This document shows positions 59,829 to 64,000 of a stretch of DNA of 64,000 nt, piece after piece. The translations under genes and the position numbers were made by a program. Where the stretch lies: the NCBI GenBank assembly GCA_965223505.1, contig CBDCWP010000031.1, positions 32,001 through 96,000 on the forward strand. The letters run 5' to 3'. The first letter of the stretch is position 1. The number at the start of each line of letters is the position of its first letter. The stretch comes from Planctomycetota bacterium (GTDB lineage Bacteria; Planctomycetota; PLA2; JAEUHO01). The notes beneath the pieces were generated by a model that had not been told where the DNA came from, made no database searches, and was given only the letters and a program-made list of their open reading frames with translations.

Positions 59829-60923
59829 CTACACGGTCGCTCGCGGCCGCGACGGACGACCGGACACCGGACTGTTCGAAAGCGCGGCCCGCTCGAGCTC
59901 GAGCAGCCGCTGCTTGCGCCAGACGCCGCCGCCGTATCCGGACAGCGAACCGTCCGATCGAACGACGCGGTGGCACGGAATCACGATCGCGATGCGGTTC
60001 TGACCGTTCGCCGAGCCCACGGCGCGACTCGCGCCCGGACGACCGACGTGCTCCGCCACCTCTCCGTAGCTCTGGGTCGCGCCGTACGGAATCGTTCGAA
60101 GGTGCGTCCACACGGCTTGCTGAAACGGCGTCGGCCGCGTGTCGAGCGCAACGTCGAAGGCGGTGAGTCGGCCCGCGAAATACGCCGCCAGCTCCCGCTC
60201 GACCTGTGCGAGGTGTTCGTTGCTGCCGGGCACGACCGATCGGCGGAACCGAGTGCGCACCTGCTGCAGCTCCCGCTCCAACGCGCGCCGGTCGACGAAC
60301 TCGAGCAGCACGAGACCGTGCTCGGAGGCGATGGCGATCATCGGTCCGAGCGGGCTCGAGATCCACGCTGCCGTCAGCGCCTCCTTCGAGCGCGACGCAC
60401 CGGGCGGCATGCCGAACACCTTCGCGAACGCGTCCCGGAAGCCGCTTTCGGACTCGTAGCCCGCGTCGACGCCGGCTGCCGAGATCCCTGCGCCTCGCGA
60501 GAGCGCACGCATCGCGATACCCAGCCGCCAGGCGCGCTGAAATGCCTGAAAGGTCACCCCGAAGTGCCGCACAAAGTAGCGCCGCACCGTCGCCGGGTTC
60601 AGGCCCTCTTCGATGAGCTCGCGATCGCGGATGCGGCGGTTCGGCGCACTGCCGACGCTGCGGATGAGACGAGCCGCCCACGACGGGCGGTCCGGATCCC
60701 GGTCGAGCGGACGGCACACTTTGCACGGCCGATAGCCGGCATGGAGGGCGGCCGCCGCGGTCGAAACGAACTCGACGTTCTGCGGCTTCGGCTTTCGGGC
60801 ACGGCAGACAGGACGACAGAAGATGCCGGTGGTCCGAACACACGCGAAGAACAGCCCGTCGTACGACGCGTCGCGCCGCACCAGCGCGTCGAACATCTCA
60901 GGGTCGGGCGGAAGCGTCTGCAC
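59829..60923 (-). CDS. ada: Bifunctional Ada regulator / methylated-DNA-protein-cysteine methyltransferase
   Basis: RDASYDG.FF..V.TTGIFCRPVC, GYRPCKVCRP (Zn), AraC HTH (GYESESGF), IPYG, IPCHRV, GYGGG. Confidence 0.95.
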   Translation of the reverse strand: MQTLPPDPEMFDALVRRDASYDGLFFACVRTTGIFCRPVCRARKPKPQNVEFVSTAAAALHAGYRPCKVCRPLDRDPDRPSWAARLIRSVGSAPNRRIRDRELIEEGLNPATVRRYFVRHFGVTFQAFQRAWRLGIAMRALSRGAGISAAGVDAGYESESGFRDAFAKVFGMPPGASRSKEALTAAWISSPLGPMIAIASEHGLVLLEFVDRRALERELQQVRTRFRRSVVPGSNEHLAQVERELAAYFAGRLTAFDVALDTRPTPFQQAVWTHLRTIPYGATQSYGEVAEHVGRPGASRAVGSANGQNRIAIVIPCHRVVRSDGSLSGYGGGVWRKQRLLELERAALSNSPVSGRPSRPRATV

Positions 60924-60994: not shown

Positions 60995-62440
60995 TCATGC
61001 GCTGGAATGCTCCTCGACCCGCCGCGCCGCGGCGTTCGCCACGAGAAGTTGCCAGCGCGCGTCGTGTCGAAACAGCTTGTGTCGAATCGGCTCGCGGAAG
61101 AGCGGCAGCCACGCCCACATGAGCCGGACGAGCGAATACCCCACGCTCATTCCGAAGATGCCGAAGAGCACCGGAAATGCACTCATCCACTCGGGAAGGG
61201 GCCGGCCGATGTACCTCGTGGCCCCGACCGTCAAGCCGCCCACGAGCAGACACCCGACCAGCGCCATCAACGCGAGGTTGAGGGCGCGTACCGTGCGTTC
61301 GACCCTGGGACCGTCGATCACGGAGGCACGCACCTCGCCCTTCGGGAAGATGCGCGAGAGGATCCACGCGAAGGCGCCCAGCAGGATGTAGCTGTCAATC
61401 GCGAGCTCGGATCCCATCGCGTGCGCCATTACGACGTGCGTGCCGTGAATGAGCGCGTTGAACGGCGGGACCGAGATCAAGAGCGCCACGGGCAAGAGGA
61501 AGACGTTCCAGTGCTTGGACAGCGACAGGAAGCGCTTCGCGGCCCCGAAGGACGCGCCGAGGACCTTCGGCCGCCCGAGCTTGCCCACGATGTCTCGCAA
61601 GAGGCTCCAGAGGATGATGATCTCGAGCATGCTCACGACGAACGCGACCCACTTGACGAGATGCGACTGCGGTAGGTGGTAGGTGTGGTGCGTGTAGTTC
61701 GTGAACGAGTTCAGCAATCCCAGTCCGAACAGGGCGAATGCCGAACGTGACTGCGCCACGGAGCGGTCGCGTGAGAGGCGTTCGCCCACGTACAGCAGCG
61801 AGCCGTACACCATCTGGTTGAACGACGCGACCAGTGTCCCGCACGACTTCCACTGGATCTGGAGGTCGGCAACGGGCTGCGAGCTCACGAACGGCAGAAG
61901 GTGCGCATGGCCTTCCGCGAAGGTGTACACGAACAAGCAGGCGCCGGCGGTCCACATGTACACGTAGACGGGCCTGGACCAGAAGCCGCGCCGGACACGG
62001 CGCAGAAACGTCCAGAGGAACAAGACCCAACCGACCAAGATCGATACGGATATCAGCGGATGGAATCCGAGGTACTCCCGGCCCGAGGTGATTCCGAGCG
62101 GCAGCGTGACGATCGTCGCGATGCCTGCCAGACCCCAGCAGACCATGTGCGCCCGATACCGGCGCCGTTCGCCGCGATTCGGTTCGCCGAAGGTCTCGAA
62201 GAGGAACCAGTACATGCAAGCGACGCAGCCCAGGTAGATCCAGGCCGAGGCGAAGGTCGTGTGCAACGGTCGGATCTGGACGAGGCTGATGCCCGCGTTC
62301 GCCATCGGCCGTGAGAACGCGGGAACGTAGTACAGCGCACCGAGCGCGCCCATCAGGACGGACAGGAGCATGCAGGCGAACGCACAGGCCATCGCCACCA
62401 GCACCATGCGCTCGCCGGACTTGAAGACGGGGTCGTTCAC
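60995..62440 (-). CDS. Heme-copper oxidase superfamily subunit I, NorB-like with atypical active site
   Basis: About 12 TM; RPLH, GREY, YTHHTY, SMLE, HGTH...AHAM; helix-VI His/Glu absent (QWKSCGTLVASFNQ). GTG at 62440 overlaps the upstream stop. Confidence 0.8.
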   Translation of the reverse strand: MNDPVFKSGERMVLVAMACAFACMLLSVLMGALGALYYVPAFSRPMANAGISLVQIRPLHTTFASAWIYLGCVACMYWFLFETFGEPNRGERRRYRAHMVCWGLAGIATIVTLPLGITSGREYLGFHPLISVSILVGWVLFLWTFLRRVRRGFWSRPVYVYMWTAGACLFVYTFAEGHAHLLPFVSSQPVADLQIQWKSCGTLVASFNQMVYGSLLYVGERLSRDRSVAQSRSAFALFGLGLLNSFTNYTHHTYHLPQSHLVKWVAFVVSMLEIIILWSLLRDIVGKLGRPKVLGASFGAAKRFLSLSKHWNVFLLPVALLISVPPFNALIHGTHVVMAHAMGSELAIDSYILLGAFAWILSRIFPKGEVRASVIDGPRVERTVRALNLALMALVGCLLVGGLTVGATRYIGRPLPEWMSAFPVLFGIFGMSVGYSLVRLMWAWLPLFREPIRHKLFRHDARWQLLVANAAARRVEEHSSA

Positions 62441-63204
62441 TTGTACTCGAACCACGGAAGGCCGTCCGTGGTCTCCTGCGCCTTGGGGGCGGCATCGCGA
62501 AACGACGCATGAATGGACTCCGCGTTCGCGCCCAACCAAGTCAAGAAGTCCAGGAGGTCGTCACGCTCCTGCGGAGCGAGGGCGAACCGCGGCATGCCCT
62601 TCGACGGGATCCCGTTGGCCAGCATGGCGGCGACGCCTTCGCGTCCGAGCTTCGTGATCAGGTGCGTGAGATCGGTTCCCTTGTGCTCGGCCATGGGGTT
62701 GGGGAGATGGCAGCCGATGCACTTCTGCGCGAAGAGCACGTCGCGGCCGTGCGCCTGCGCCGGGGTCATGAACACGCCGTCTTCGACCGCTCGCGACACC
62801 GCCTCTGCCAGTACCTCCGCGCCGTCGAAACCGCGATACGGCGGCAGCTGGCCGCGGCCGGTCTCGTGGACCTCGGCCAGAAACGCCTCAATTGCCCGGC
62901 GGTCTGCGTCACTCAGGTCGAACGCCGGCATCTGGCCGGCGCCGATGGTGAGGACGGTGTCGACCCGTGCGCGGGTCAGGCGTTCCGTCGCGTTGGTGAG
63001 GTCGGGCCCGAGGAACCCGCCGAATCCGTAGATCTGATGGCAGCTCTGACAGTTGTGGCGGTGCCAGACATCGCGGCCCGCGGACGCCTGACCCGACAAC
63101 GCCGCCGTCGCCCGGCCCGCGGGATCCGTGTACACCAGCCAACCTTGCAGAAAGAACACGGCCACCAGACTGACGAGGAGAACCTGGCGGGCGCGCGTGC
63201 TCAT
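62437..63204 (-). CDS. NorC-like membrane-anchored di-haem cytochrome c
   Basis: N-terminal TM; G..VW...NCQSCHQIYG.GG.LGPDLTN...MP; second CIGCH...MP. Confidence 0.85.
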   Translation of the reverse strand: MSTRARQVLLVSLVAVFFLQGWLVYTDPAGRATAALSGQASAGRDVWHRHNCQSCHQIYGFGGFLGPDLTNATERLTRARVDTVLTIGAGQMPAFDLSDADRRAIEAFLAEVHETGRGQLPPYRGFDGAEVLAEAVSRAVEDGVFMTPAQAHGRDVLFAQKCIGCHLPNPMAEHKGTDLTHLITKLGREGVAAMLANGIPSKGMPRFALAPQERDDLLDFLTWLGANAESIHASFRDAAPKAQETTDGLPWFEYK

Positions 63205-63935
63205 CTACGTTCGGTGAGCTCCGAGTTCGTGGCGACGTAGATCGTATCCGTTTGGTCGTCGTCGATCATCGGGTTGAACACGACGATCTCGTGCGTCGCG
63301 ACGTCGGCGAACGCGGTCGAGAGCAGCCGGGTGAAGGCGTCGTTCGTCGCACCCGCCGACCACAGCGCGAACACGCCGCCCGGCGACAGCAACGCCGCCG
63401 CCGATGCCATCGCGCCGCGCTCGTAGAAGCGACCGTGCGCCGGACCCAGCCAGGCGTCGGGCGCATGGTCGATGTCCACGAGGATCGCGCCGTACCCGCC
63501 GGCGACCGCGATCTCGCTCTCCGCACCCCGGCCGACGAGCGCGAAAAAGTCGCCTTGACGCAGCGTGCAGCGTTCGTGCCCGCACAAGGACGCCCCGAGC
63601 GGAACGAGACCCGTTTGGTGCCACTCGATGACCTCCGGCAACAGATCGACGACCGTGACGCTGCGCGCGCGCTCGTCGCCGAGCGCGGCCCATGCCGTGT
63701 ACCCGAGGCCGAGCCCGCCGACCAGCACGTCGAACGGTTCATCCGGCGCGTCAGCGAGCGCAAGCAGAGAGAGCTGCTGCTCCGACTCGTTGAGCCAGCT
63801 CGACATCAACAGGTCGTCATTGAGCTTGATCTCGTAGATGGGCTCGGGGCCGAGCCCCGGCACCGTCCTGCGACGCAGCACGAGCTCGCCCAACGCGCAC
63901 TGACGGACGTCGAGCTCTTCGTAGGTGGTGCTCAT
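63201..63935 (-). CDS. Spermidine-synthase-like SAM-binding protein
   Basis: GELVLRRR, EIKLNDDLLMSS, VLVGGLGLGYT, GDFF, ILVDIDH, GVFALWS; ATGA overlap with the cytochrome gene. Confidence 0.85.
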   Translation of the reverse strand: MSTTYEELDVRQCALGELVLRRRTVPGLGPEPIYEIKLNDDLLMSSWLNESEQQLSLLALADAPDEPFDVLVGGLGLGYTAWAALGDERARSVTVVDLLPEVIEWHQTGLVPLGASLCGHERCTLRQGDFFALVGRGAESEIAVAGGYGAILVDIDHAPDAWLGPAHGRFYERGAMASAAALLSPGGVFALWSAGATNDAFTRLLSTAFADVATHEIVVFNPMIDDDQTDTIYVATNSELTERR

Positions 63936-64000
63936 GGAACGCGCATCGTCGATGCGTCGGGTCAATTCGAGCCAGGGAAATCGAAGCCGTCCGCGCGCTT

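What the first reader, a model, noticed from the sequence alone, without database searches (positions are those of the whole stretch)
60995..63204. NorBC-like heme-copper oxidase with a rebuilt active site (no helix-VI His/Glu; His-to-Met heme ligand) and a di-haem partner
Seen: the NorB-like subunit keeps the helix-II heme His (RPLH), the GRE Ca-binding loop, the HH pair (~61685), a helix-VIII Glu (SMLE) and HGT. Where cNOR has WWVVHLWVEGxxE it reads IQWKSCGTLVASFNQ, and the helix-X HxH reads HAM (~61415-61423). The partner cytochrome has two CxxCH motifs, and no norQ/norD is adjacent. Established: in canonical NorB the helix-VI His and Glu ligate non-heme FeB, and the second His of HxH ligates low-spin heme b; His/Met ligation generally raises heme potential. 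Inference: this is not a standard NO reductase or O2 reductase but an HCO-fold enzyme with different chemistry. Lys, Cys or the EGHAH segment may replace the lost ligands. It may belong to one of the uncharacterised cNOR-related clades, for which functions such as N2O reduction have been proposed but not shown here.
Basis: partly seen in the sequence, partly recalled or inferred. Interest (0 to 1): 0.78.

Follow-up and report, generated by a model that had tools for sequence, protein, structure and literature searches.

The report
Rebuilt-site relative of nitric oxide reductase
This two-gene operon encodes an intact membrane haem enzyme related to bacterial nitric oxide reductase whose metal-binding site has been rebuilt; it belongs to a published but never assayed enzyme family, so it is a real oddity but not a new one.

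Summary
Window 60995-62440 (-) encodes a 481-aa haem-copper-oxidase (HCO) subunit I. Window 62437-63204 (-) encodes a membrane-anchored di-haem cytochrome c. The two genes are coupled by a GTGA overlap.

The canonical helix-VI metal histidine is Gly201, and cNOR's Glu211 and Glu215 are lost. The second axial ligand of the low-spin haem is Met342. These changes are conserved family traits, not decay. Profile search finds 388 representatives, and 223 species genomes carry a relative.

A tree places the family as sister to cNOR/qNOR. Through one genome's HCO inventory I equate it with the "N2Ored" family of Murali et al. (PNAS 2024), which was proposed as an N2O reductase and, in the papers I could search, has not been assayed.

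It is one turn above Gly201 and co-varies with Glu273. A sister subclade has His198/Asp201/Ala273 instead, which suggests a retained 3N+1O metal site. Cys200 and His178/His180 are not conserved.

Carriers mostly lack the denitrification genes searched: 9 of 50 have a nitrite reductase (nirK or nirS) and 12 of 50 have nosZ. This genome has none of the three.

The substrate is unknown. I favour NO, then N2O. Verdict: a new member of a known, uncharacterised family.

The parts
60995..62440 (-). HCO subunit I homologue (481 aa, 12 predicted TM helices), a K-type member of the 'N2Ored' clade
   Evidence: PF00115 at 58.5 bits. AF2 model with pLDDT 90.5. Best Foldseek hits are cNOR NorB 4xyd_A and 3o0r_B, then cbb3 CcoN. 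The start is fixed by alignment with 25 homologues.
62437..63204 (-). Membrane-anchored di-haem cytochrome c partner (255 aa): N-terminal TM helix, a NorC-like first haem domain, a second class-I haem domain, and a conserved LPWFEY tail
   Evidence: PF13442 and PF00034. A homologue lies upstream on the same strand in 79 of 80 related loci. Alignment A2. Best compact structural matches are NorC 3o0r_C and 4xyd_B, which are weak (E 0.017 and 0.03).
62437..62440 (-). GTGA overlap: the stop of the cytochrome gene overlaps the GTG start of the HCO gene (translational coupling)
62261..62263 (-). His60, helix II, axial ligand of the low-spin haem b
   Evidence: Aligned to the NorB helix-II His. Present in 59 of 59 K-type and 14 of 14 H-type rows.
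62075..62083 (-). Gly120-Arg121-Glu122, equivalent to the Ca-binding GRE loop of cNOR and cbb3
   Evidence: GRE aligns with GRE of NorB and with KEY/SKEY of CcoN. Glu122 is present in 57 of 59 K-type and 14 of 14 H-type rows.
61838..61855 (-). Helix VI segment Gln196-Trp197-Lys198-Ser199-Cys200-Gly201. Gly201 occupies the CuB/FeB histidine column, Trp197 is the universal Trp at His-4, and Lys198 is the candidate replacement ligand.
   Evidence: Multi-family alignment, HMM alignment to CcoN, conservation counts.
61817..61819 (-). Asn208, in the column of cNOR Glu215
   Evidence: Asn in 59 of 59 K-type rows
61685..61690 (-). His251-His252, the helix VII metal-ligand pair
   Evidence: invariant in all 73 K-type and H-type rows
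61622..61624 (-). Glu273, helix VIII, equivalent of cNOR Glu280. It co-varies with Lys198 and Gly201.
61415..61423 (-). His340-Ala341-Met342, helix X. His340 is the proximal ligand of the high-spin haem b3. Met342 replaces the second His of HxH, giving a His/Met low-spin haem.
   Evidence: Met in 57 of 59 K-type and 14 of 14 H-type rows
63037..63051 (-). Haem c site 1 of the partner (CQSCH). The likely distal Met92 is at 62929-62931.
62707..62721 (-). Haem c site 2 of the partner (CIGCH). The likely distal Met204 is at 62593-62595.
63201..63965 (-). Upstream co-directional 254-aa methyltransferase-like gene whose stop overlaps the cytochrome start (ATGA). Probably co-transcribed here, but not part of the conserved unit.
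   Evidence: a homologue is present in 0 of 80 related loci

Best explanation
The locus encodes a functional two-subunit, cytochrome-c-dependent membrane reductase of the HCO superfamily. It is a K-type member of the clade that is sister to cNOR/qNOR, the clade Murali et al. 2024 call 'N2Ored'.

Inferred mechanism:
- A periplasmic donor reduces the two c haems of the anchored, NorC-like partner.
- Electrons pass to a low-spin haem b with His60/Met342 ligation. Murali et al. say, of the same ligand pair in nNOR, that it likely raises the potential by about 150 mV.
- They then reach the high-spin haem b3 on His340.
- Opposite haem b3 lies a rebuilt distal site made of His251, His252, Lys198 and Glu273. 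Gly201 takes the place of the canonical histidine.
- I think this site still holds a non-haem metal in a 3N+1O set. The sister subclade rebuilds the same set as His198 + His251 + His252 + Asp201.
- Protons come from the periplasmic side, as in cNOR, so the enzyme would not be electrogenic.

I take the substrate to be a small nitrogen oxide. The most likely role is a two-electron reduction of NO used for scavenging or detoxification, not denitrification. N2O is the second choice.

Shown here: fold, family membership, residue equivalences, conservation and covariation, partner linkage, and lack of linkage to nir and nos.
Inferred only: metal content, ligation by Lys, substrate, and proton route.

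My odds are about 0.9 for family membership and a non-canonical but functional site. The figure given as confidence covers the whole statement, including NO as substrate.
For: Fold. The AF2 model has pLDDT 90.5. The best solved matches are cNOR NorB (4xyd_A, E 4e-10, TM 0.84; 3o0r_B) and then cbb3 CcoN.

Tree. On 57 rows with the LG+C20 quick method, the family has SH-aLRT support 99, and the branch joining it to cNOR+qNOR+NOD-like has 96. The cbb3 sequences fall outside.

Retained NOR-type features.
- The haem ligands His60 and His340, the GRE loop, the HH pair and HGT are kept.
- Glu273 corresponds to cNOR Glu280.
- Asp192 lies nine residues before Gly201, as an Asp does before the helix-VI His in CcoN and in S. 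meliloti NorB (sequences; my own counting).

Purifying selection. The profile finds 388 representatives at E<=1e-3. In genome contigs, 223 matched stretches in species genomes encode a relative. The key residues are invariant.

Covariation not imposed by my grouping. All 59 K-type rows have G201, E273 and S323. All 14 H-type rows have D201, A273 and A323.

Partner.
- It is present upstream in 79 of 80 loci.
- It has two CxxCH in 76 of 79.
- Natural fusions exist of HCO + FixO-like + cytochrome c domains.

Not the denitrification NOR.
- Nitrite reductase genes occur in 9 of 50 carriers.
- All 4 carriers with a canonical cNOR also have nirK or nirS. In two of them the cNOR lies 3-4 kb from it.
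- 33 of 50 carriers show no other cNOR or qNOR, so this could be their only HCO-type NO reductase.
- Murali et al. (passages read) argue that several different HCO active sites support NO reduction.
Against: - No activity has been measured for any member, as far as my literature searches reach.
- Two of the three glutamates I recall as important in cNOR (Glu211, Glu215) are missing, together with one histidine. NO reduction by the cNOR mechanism therefore cannot be assumed.
- Lys is a rare metal ligand. I could not inspect model coordinates, so the geometry of Lys198, Glu273, His251 and His252 is untested.
- This genome already carries a NOD-like qNOR, and no nirK, nirS or nosZ was found in it (92.5% complete).
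- The only published functional label for the family is N2O reduction.
- The distribution is patchy: 28 of 301 sampled Planctomycetota genomes, and 0 of 10 in the same family. That fits an accessory role but does not identify it.
Confidence: 0.4

Rival explanations
1. It is a haem-based, NosZ-independent nitrous oxide reductase. This is the function Murali et al. proposed for the family: a membrane-bound enzyme insensitive to sulfide and acetylene.
For: - The family label and rationale appear in PMC11214002 (passages). They rest on the membrane-bound N2O reductase activity of Flexibacter canadensis. I did not read those two papers (refs 30 and 31); I saw only the citations.
- Solitalea canadensis, which I recall is the current name of that organism, has one N2Ored gene. 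S. longa and S. koreensis have none (Dataset S6).
- 38 of 50 carriers lack nosZ.
- A higher-potential His/Met haem fits a very oxidising acceptor.
- One divergent member lies about 6 kb from a nosZ cluster (G089).
Against: - Solitalea canadensis also has nosZ and nosD (Dataset S8), so its N2O reduction needs no new enzyme. A 2026 review lists the F. canadensis enzyme among homologues of the copper enzyme (PMC13685413, passage).
- Dataset S8 also records nosZ in the other N2Ored genomes I looked up (F. croceum, C. normanense, SZUA-318).
- In the phylum sample, nosZ is found in 3 of 28 carriers and 12 of 273 non-carriers. That is neither avoidance nor dependence.
- From general knowledge, N2O binds metals poorly, and I know of no haem enzyme shown to reduce it physiologically.
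Confidence: 0.2
2. The distal site holds no second metal. The ammonium group of Lys198, paired with Glu273, takes the place of FeB/CuB. The enzyme then carries out single-haem chemistry on some other substrate, for example NO dismutation, or hydroxylamine, nitrite or peroxide reduction.
For: - Gly at the histidine position together with a long Lys side chain one turn above would let the amine reach the place of the metal.
- No NorQ-type insertion factor was found in the genome or as a conserved neighbour.
- The same genome holds a NOD-like enzyme, which shows that this lineage tolerates rebuilt NOR sites.
Against: - The sister subclade replaces Lys/Gly/Glu by His/Asp and adds a third helix-VII His in 11 of 14 rows. 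That pattern looks like metal binding.
- His251 and His252 are invariant in all 73 rows.
- No data point to any particular alternative substrate.
Confidence: 0.2
3. It is an oxygen (or peroxide) reductase, a divergent relative of cbb3 oxidases used under particular oxygen regimes.
For: - The only significant sequence-profile hits among solved structures are cbb3 CcoN (E 0.007).
- NCBI names some members 'cbb3-type cytochrome c oxidase subunit I'.
- The Trp197-to-His251 spacing equals that of cbb3.
- The fused forms carry FixO-like domains.
- Carriers are largely aerobic-type lineages with A-family oxidases (Dataset S6).
- Tyr occupies position 200 in 31 of 59 K-type rows.
Against: - There is no helix-VI histidine to carry the His-Tyr cross-link. 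Position 200 is variable, and it is Cys here.
- Murali et al. state that the six new families lack the active-site tyrosine (passage).
- The tree puts the family with the NORs, not inside the C-family.
Confidence: 0.1
4. It is a decaying or inactive relic of a cNOR operon.
For: - Canonical ligands are lost.
- There are no accessory genes.
- The distribution is patchy.
Against: - Both frames are intact and translationally coupled.
- The substitutions are invariant across a family at 44-70% identity, and in 388 representatives from several phyla.
- The model is confident.
Confidence: 0.02

Closest known systems
'N2Ored' HCO family of Murali, Hemp, Gennis et al. (PNAS 2024, PMC11214002; bioRxiv 2021)
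   Same: - Both are a distinct clade in the C-family branch next to cNOR (their text; my tree).
- The taxa match: Planctomycetota, Gemmatimonadota, Bacteroidota (Dataset S6; my).
- In the SZUA-318 genome their counts are A 1, C 1, eNOR 1, N2Ored 1. These match my four PF00115 hits one for one, and the fourth hit is a member of this family.
   Different: Nothing known differs. Their main text gives no active-site description for this family, and I could not read their SI Appendix. Whether they include the H-type subclade is unknown. The function is proposed, not measured.
cNOR (NorBC), e.g. P. aeruginosa 3O0R and R. denitrificans 4XYD
   Same: - The 12-helix fold.
- The haem b and b3 histidines of helices II and X, the GRE loop, the HH pair, the helix-VIII Glu and HGT.
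- A TM-anchored c-type cytochrome encoded upstream.
   Different: - The helix-VI His is Gly201.
- The Glu211 column is absent.
- Glu215 is Asn208.
- The second low-spin ligand is Met.
- The partner has a second haem domain.
- There is no norQ or norD.
- The protein lies outside the cNOR clade.
cbb3 oxidase CcoN/CcoO/CcoP (3MK7, 8SMR)
   Same: - The helix VI motif D-x3-QW and its spacing.
- The Ca-site Glu.
- Cytochrome c partners, with FixO-like domains in the fused relatives.
   Different: - No CuB histidine in helix VI and no cross-linked Tyr.
- A His/Met haem.
- The tree places it with the NORs.
gNOR and nNOR families (Murali et al. 2024, described from sequence)
   Same: - gNOR has Asp in place of an active-site His, as the H-type subclade has at position 201.
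- nNOR has a His/Met low-spin haem, as here.
   Different: Both gNOR and nNOR are B-family derivatives with cupredoxin subunits. This family is in the C/NOR branch with cytochrome c subunits, so these are convergent traits.
NOD-like qNOR (putative nitric oxide dismutase)
   Same: It is a NOR-branch enzyme with substituted metal ligands. One is encoded in the same genome.
   Different: - NOD is a fused qNOR-type protein that keeps the helix-VI His.
- It changes the HH pair to HN, and Glu to Gln in helix VIII.

Membership tests
HCO superfamily, subunit I (PF00115) | 12-helix core fold and a Pfam match over threshold | tested here: met
   58.5 bits against a cut-off of 34.8. AF2 plus Foldseek give TM 0.78-0.84 to NorB and CcoN.
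HCO superfamily, subunit I (PF00115) | Six canonical histidines: helix II, helix VI, the helix VII pair and the helix X pair | tested here: not met
   Four of the six are present (His60, His251, His252, His340). The helix-VI position is Gly201, and the second helix-X position is Met342.
cNOR (NorB) | FeB ligand set of three His plus Glu211, with Glu215 and Glu280 nearby | tested here: not met
   Only the HH pair and the Glu280 equivalent (Glu273) remain. The Glu211 column is a gap, and Glu215 is Asn208.
cNOR (NorB) | Falls inside the cNOR clade | tested here: not met
   The cNOR clade (support 97) groups with qNOR and NOD-like sequences (99). This family forms its own clade (99) as their sister.
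cNOR (NorBC operon) | Mono-haem NorC partner and the NorQ/NorD maturation genes | tested here: not met
   The partner is di-haem. Its N-terminal half resembles NorC only weakly (E 0.017). There is no conserved extra neighbour in 80 loci, and no CbbQ_C domain in the own genome. I did not search for NorD specifically.
C-family (cbb3) oxygen reductase | CuB His in helix VI cross-linked to a helix-VII Tyr, and membership of the CcoN clade | tested here: not met
   Gly201 stands at the His column. TIGR00780 scores 19 bits against a cut-off of 583. The protein lies outside the cbb3 clade.
'N2Ored' family (Murali et al. 2024) | A distinct HCO clade next to cNOR in the C-family branch | tested here: met
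   Tree.
'N2Ored' family (Murali et al. 2024) | The same genes as those the authors counted | tested here: met
   SZUA-318 genome: four PF00115 hits (A-like 449 bits, cbb3 382 bits, B-like 209 bits, and this family 62.5 bits) against their row A1/C1/ENOR1/N2Ored1. The taxa overlap. No accession-level match could be shown.
'N2Ored' family (Murali et al. 2024) | Nitrous oxide reductase activity | not testable with these tools
   The activity is proposed only. No assay turned up in the literature searches.

The most novel reading that the evidence does not exclude
The family is a haem enzyme free of any copper-sulfide cluster that reduces N2O, or carries out another nitrogen-oxide reaction not known for HCOs. 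It would do so at a haem b3 / non-haem-metal centre ligated by two His, a Lys and a Glu. If so, Planctomycetota, Gemmatimonadota and Bacteroidota that lack nosZ would form an uncounted sink, or source, of a greenhouse gas. The K-type and H-type subclades would be two independent solutions for rebuilding the metal site after loss of the canonical histidine.
Probability: 0.18. Interest if true: 0.9.

Novelty: new member of a known kind. Interest (0 to 1): 0.45.

Why it matters
HCO-type enzymes make most biological N2O, and the only proven biological N2O sink is the copper enzyme NosZ. This family is widespread: 223 matched stretches in the species-genome collection encode a relative, and 28 of 301 sampled Planctomycetota genomes carry it. 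It is a NOR relative with a rebuilt active site and is annotated either as 'nitric oxide reductase subunit B' or as 'cbb3 oxidase'.

Until someone assays it, gene-based nitrogen-cycle budgets will misassign it one way or the other.

The residue map given here offers concrete mutagenesis targets: Gly201 at the histidine position, the Lys198/Glu273 versus His198/Asp201 covariation, and the His/Met haem. Cultured carriers named in Murali et al.'s datasets make the test practical.

For this window itself the result is modest. It is one more intact member of that family.

Tried and rejected
**Registers and candidate ligands**
- Cys200 as the replacement ligand. The cNOR spacing His207->His258 = 51 points to residue 200. 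I rejected this because Trp at His-4, the multi-family alignment and the conservation stripe 198-201-205-208-212 all put Gly201 in the histidine column, and position 200 is variable.
- His178 and His180 (the EGHAH segment) as ligands. They are not conserved.
- The hhalign helix-VI register, which aligned Asp192 with the histidine. That stretch of the alignment is gapped and unreliable.

**Searches that led nowhere**
- Direct sequence search of solved structures with the single protein found nothing relevant.
- Three cluster look-ups gave no accession-level match to the 11 N2Ored sequences of Dataset S4. Most members carry no accession.
- Neighbourhood clustering found nothing conserved beyond the two genes. 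The window's own neighbours are absent from all 80 loci.
- An FNR-type box upstream of the operon occurs in 5 of 37 loci at two or fewer mismatches, against a shuffled mean of 1.2 and maximum of 6. This is not convincing.
- No RNA holder was listed for this stretch, so expression could not be examined.
- An apparent in-frame TGA in one homologue (G093) lies outside the intact coding sequence.
- PF18764 (the nosZ propeller) found nothing, but its control rang nowhere. I therefore relied on TIGR04246.

**Linkage to nosZ**
- In one genome the family gene lies about 6 kb from a nosZ cluster (G089). In the two other stretches I fetched around nosZ it was not present.

- Complex prediction was not used. 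Operon conservation and the natural fusions already argue for a complex.
- I could not read model coordinates, so no distances around haem b3 were measured.

**Papers and files I could not read**
- Murali et al.'s SI Appendix was too large, Dataset S2 is images only, and Dataset S3 is in an unreadable format. They may already describe this family's active site.
- I did not read Jones et al. 1990 or 1992.
Full report
**Observation**

Two co-directional genes on the minus strand fill the finding's coordinates exactly.
- The upstream gene (62437-63204) encodes a 255-aa protein with an N-terminal transmembrane helix and two CxxCH motifs.
- The downstream gene encodes a distant HCO subunit I.
- Its real start is the GTG at 62440, inside a GTGA overlap with the cytochrome's stop codon. 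The resulting 481-aa N-terminus matches the homologues.
- Pfam gives PF00115 at 58.5 bits for the large protein and two cytochrome c domains for the small one.
- NCBIfam gives only traces of CcoN (19 bits).

**Fold and placement**

- An AlphaFold2 model built on 26 sequences is confident (pLDDT 90.5, pTM 0.90) and has twelve long helices.
- Foldseek ranks cNOR NorB first (4xyd_A, E 4e-10, TM 0.84; 3o0r_B), followed closely by cbb3 CcoN. B- and A-family oxidases and qNOR rank lower.
- By sequence alone nothing solved is found. With the family profile, only CcoN reaches E 0.007.
- I fetched a canonical NorB from S. meliloti pSymA. hhalign gives 94% probability over 395 columns.
- A maximum-likelihood tree has 57 rows: 35 family members, 5 cNOR, 5 qNOR, 4 NOD-like, 4 cbb3, 2 C-like and 2 A-type as outgroup. 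It used the IQ-TREE quick search with SH-aLRT only.
- In that tree the family has support 99, and the branch joining it to the cNOR+qNOR+NOD clade has 96. The cbb3 sequences fall outside.
- These sequences are very divergent, ten rows have deviant composition, and no bootstrap was run. The topology should be read with care.

**Residue equivalences**

hhalign and the multi-family MAFFT alignment, which is identical under --auto and L-INS-i, agree on these:
- His60 = the helix-II haem b ligand.
- Gly-Arg-Glu122 = the GRE loop.
- His251/His252 = the helix-VII pair.
- Glu273 (SMLE) = cNOR Glu280 (STLE).
- His332-Gly-Thr = HGT.
- His340 = the haem b3 ligand.
- Met342 = the second His of HxH.

Helix VI needed more work.
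- Spacing from the HH pair would put Cys200 (cNOR spacing 51) or Gly201 (cbb3 spacing 50) at the metal histidine.
- Three things decide for Gly201.
  - The Trp four residues before the histidine in the cNOR, qNOR, canonical cbb3 and A-type sequences I compared is Trp197 here.
  - The ungapped match of ADLQIQWKSCGTLVASF to CcoN's TDAMVQWWYGHNAVGFF supports the same register.
  - The conserved stripe 198-201-205-208-212 lies on one helix face, whereas position 200 is variable.
- In this register cNOR Glu211 has no counterpart (a one-column gap), and Glu215 is Asn208.

**The changes are family traits**

- The 90%-clustered database holds 455 homologues at E<=1e-3 among the 8000 candidates scored.
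- The exhaustive profile search of 1.84 billion representatives gives 388 at E<=1e-3, 282 at 1e-10 and 150 at 1e-30.
- In the scan of the species-genome collection, 223 matched stretches encode a relative.
- I aligned the query with the 80 listed representatives of at least 400 aa, making 81 rows.
- I set aside 7 rows whose later motifs are broken or aberrant: P0170 (Arg at 198), P0172, P0206, P0208 (RH for HH), P0210, P0213 and P0241.
- One further row, P0267, has Gln at 198 and falls in neither group.
- The remaining 73 rows split by residue 198 into 59 'K-type' rows (Lys) and 14 'H-type' rows (His).

Residues shared by both types:

| Residue | K-type (of 59) | H-type (of 14) |
|---|---|---|
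| His60 | 59 | 14 |
| Glu122 | 57 | 14 |
| Glu176 | 59 | 14 |
| Trp197 | 57 | 14 |
| Asn208 | 59 | 11 |
| His251, His252 | 59 | 14 |
| His332, His340 | 59 | 14 |
| Met342 | 57 | 14 |

- Three further positions follow the split without exception, although I did not use them to define it:
  - K-type: Gly201, Glu273, Ser323 in 59 of 59.
  - H-type: Asp201, Ala273, Ala323 in 14 of 14.
- The H-type also has a third helix-VII histidine in 11 of 14 rows.
- The tree recovers both types as clades (support 91 and 100).
- Cys200 is Cys in only 5 of 59 K-type rows (Tyr 31, Asn 7). His178 is present in 34 of 59, His180 in 3 of 59, and His255 in 29 of 59.

What the covariation suggests (inference):
- One subclade offers His198 + Asp201 + His251 + His252. 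That is three nitrogens and a carboxylate, the ligand set of FeB in cNOR.
- The other subclade offers Lys198 + Glu273 + His251 + His252.
- The simplest reading is that a non-haem metal site was kept but rebuilt after the canonical histidine was lost. In the K-type, Lys sits one turn above an obligatory Gly that makes room for it.
- I could not read the model's coordinates, so the geometry is untested. A metal-free pocket with a Lys-Glu pair is a live alternative.

**Partner**

- A homologue of the cytochrome lies immediately upstream on the same strand in 79 of the 80 fetched loci.
- 76 of the 79 have two CxxCH. Two of the three exceptions are ORFs cut by a contig end.
- The alignment shows the anchor helix, a highly conserved NCQSCHQIYGFGGFLGPDLTN segment, Met92 and Met204 as likely distal ligands, and a conserved LPWFEY tail.
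- Its model (pLDDT 84) finds NorC of the two solved cNORs as the best compact matches. These are weak: E 0.017 and 0.03, TM 0.64 and 0.49 on the target. Nothing reaches E 0.001.
- In four roughly 800-aa relatives the HCO is fused to C-terminal cytochrome c domains. Three of the four also carry a FixO-like stretch.
- Together with the start/stop overlap, this supports a NorBC-like two-subunit complex with one extra haem.
- No other neighbour is conserved. After the two genes and their overlapping-frame artefacts, the next cluster occurs in 10 of 80 loci.
- The window's own neighbours occur in 0 of 80 loci. They are a methyltransferase-like gene that overlaps the cytochrome start, an Ada-type regulator and an SAM-methyltransferase.
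- Beyond the window's end lie an IPT/LTD-type lipoprotein and a kinase.

**Identity with a published family**

- Murali et al. [quoted passage not shown] They count 293 GTDB genomes for it (passages). The 2021 preprint says the same.
- Their Dataset S6 lists it in Bacteroidota, Planctomycetota class UBA1135, Gemmatimonadota and others.
- My relatives come from the same groups.
  - The closest 80 loci are mostly Planctomycetota with Gemmatimonadota.
  - A more distant branch (P0178, 304 bits to my profile) has homologues named from Flavobacteriaceae, Chitinophagaceae, Sphingobacteriales and Niastella.
- The direct link is one genome.
  - Locus L067 comes from the MAG isolate SZUA-318. The genome behind it has exactly four PF00115 hits: 449 bits (A-like), 382 bits (a cbb3 CcoN that also scores 666 bits with TIGR00780), 209 bits (B-like), and 62.5 bits. 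The last hit is the same DNA as L067.
  - Their row for SZUA-318 sp003248075 reads A 1, C 1, ENOR 1, N2Ored 1.
  - Both their table and my search find nosZ in that genome.
- I could not show an accession-level match.
- Their main text does not describe this family's active site. It says gNOR is the first family to replace an active-site histidine.
- Their SI Appendix could not be read here, so I cannot say whether the residue map above is new.
- Four literature searches found no assay of the family.

**What the genomes say about function**

This genome (5.15 Mb, 92.5% complete):
- It has five other HCO genes: two A-type, two C-like and one NOD-like qNOR.
- No nirK or nirS was found.
- No nosZ was found; the only hits are 24-bit matches to CuA domains beside the A-type oxidases.
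- No CbbQ_C domain was found.

Among 50 of the 80 carrier genomes (the tool takes 50 per call):

| Gene | Carriers with it |
|---|---|
| nosZ | 12 of 50 |
| nirK | 6 of 50 |
| nirS | 3 of 50 |
| nirK or nirS | 9 of 50 |
| canonical cNOR (47-49% identity to S. meliloti NorB) | 4 of 50 |
| qNOR- or NOD-like, no cNOR | 13 of 50 |
| no cNOR or qNOR match | 33 of 50 |

- All four carriers with a canonical cNOR also have nirK or nirS. In two of them the cNOR lies 3-4 kb from the nir gene.
- In an even sample of 301 Planctomycetota genomes at 80% or higher completeness, own genome included:
  - 28 carry the family.
  - 0 of 10 in the same family carry it, and 1 of 6 in family f2 of the same order.
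  - nosZ is found in 3 of the 28 carriers and 12 of the 273 others.
- Related genomes are not independent and MAGs are incomplete, so these are descriptions, not tests.
- Even so, they show an accessory, patchily distributed gene pair that is tied neither to nitrite reduction nor to NosZ.

The published N2O idea:
- It rests on Flexibacter canadensis, which I recall is now called Solitalea canadensis.
- That species has one N2Ored gene, while two congeners have none.
- It also has nosZ, nosD, nirK and qNOR, so its N2O reduction needs no new enzyme.

**Verdict on mechanism**

- I take the pair to be a working NorBC-like complex.
- Electrons run from two c haems to a His/Met haem b and then to haem b3, which faces a rebuilt distal site.
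- I rank the substrates in this order: NO, in a scavenging or detoxifying role; then N2O; then chemistry at a metal-free pocket; then O2 or peroxide.
- Decay is practically excluded.
- I see no conserved polar residue deeper than about two thirds of the way toward the cytoplasmic side of helices VI-VIII. With the retained Asp192 and Glu273, this fits periplasmic proton supply as in cNOR. That is an inference from conservation only.

**Novelty**

- The clade has been in print since 2021/2024, so this is a new member of a known but uncharacterised family.

Noticed in passing
own genome, contig C21:92748-95564 (-), outside the window: A qNOR-type gene with HN in place of the helix-VII HH pair (GIAHNFYW) and STLQ in place of STLE. 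I recall these as the substitutions described for putative nitric oxide dismutases. In my tree it groups with three similar genes from carrier genomes (support 99).
   Followed up: partly
proteins P0243-P0280 (representatives): A deep sister subclade of the family ('H-type') has QWHG[LI]D in helix VI, mostly HHH in helix VII, and Ala in place of Glu273, but keeps the His/Met haem. One cluster member is named from a marine Gammaproteobacteria MAG. Whether the published N2Ored family includes it is unknown.
   Followed up: partly
proteins P0162, P0177, P0202, P0208: Forms of about 800 aa in which the HCO subunit is fused to C-terminal cytochrome c domains, with a FixO-like stretch in three of the four. 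The domain order is the reverse of the operon order seen here.
   Followed up: partly
L114 (G089:C18:1-16000): A divergent family member (36% identity) and its short cytochrome lie about 6 kb from, and divergent to, a nosZ-containing cluster whose NosZ scores below the NCBIfam cut-off (487 bits). The two other stretches I fetched around nosZ did not contain the family gene.
   Followed up: partly
own genome, C34:35979-37841 (+) and C30:135329-136834 (-): Two divergent C-family-like subunit I genes keep the HNAVG/HNVVG histidine but have Gly, not Trp, four residues before it. They form a sister pair to canonical cbb3 in the tree.
   Followed up: no
window 63201-63965 (-), and 63962-65320 (-) in window-based numbering, which runs past the window's end at 64000: Two upstream co-directional genes each overlap the next by 4 bases: a 452-aa IPT/LTD-like lipoprotein, then a 254-aa methyltransferase-like protein, then the cytochrome. 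In this genome the operon may therefore be four genes long, but neither extra gene is found beside the pair elsewhere.
   Followed up: partly
window 59829-60923 (-): An Ada-type fusion of an Ada Zn-binding domain, an AraC HTH domain and O6-methylguanine methyltransferase lies directly downstream of the operon. It is ordinary and unrelated.
   Followed up: no
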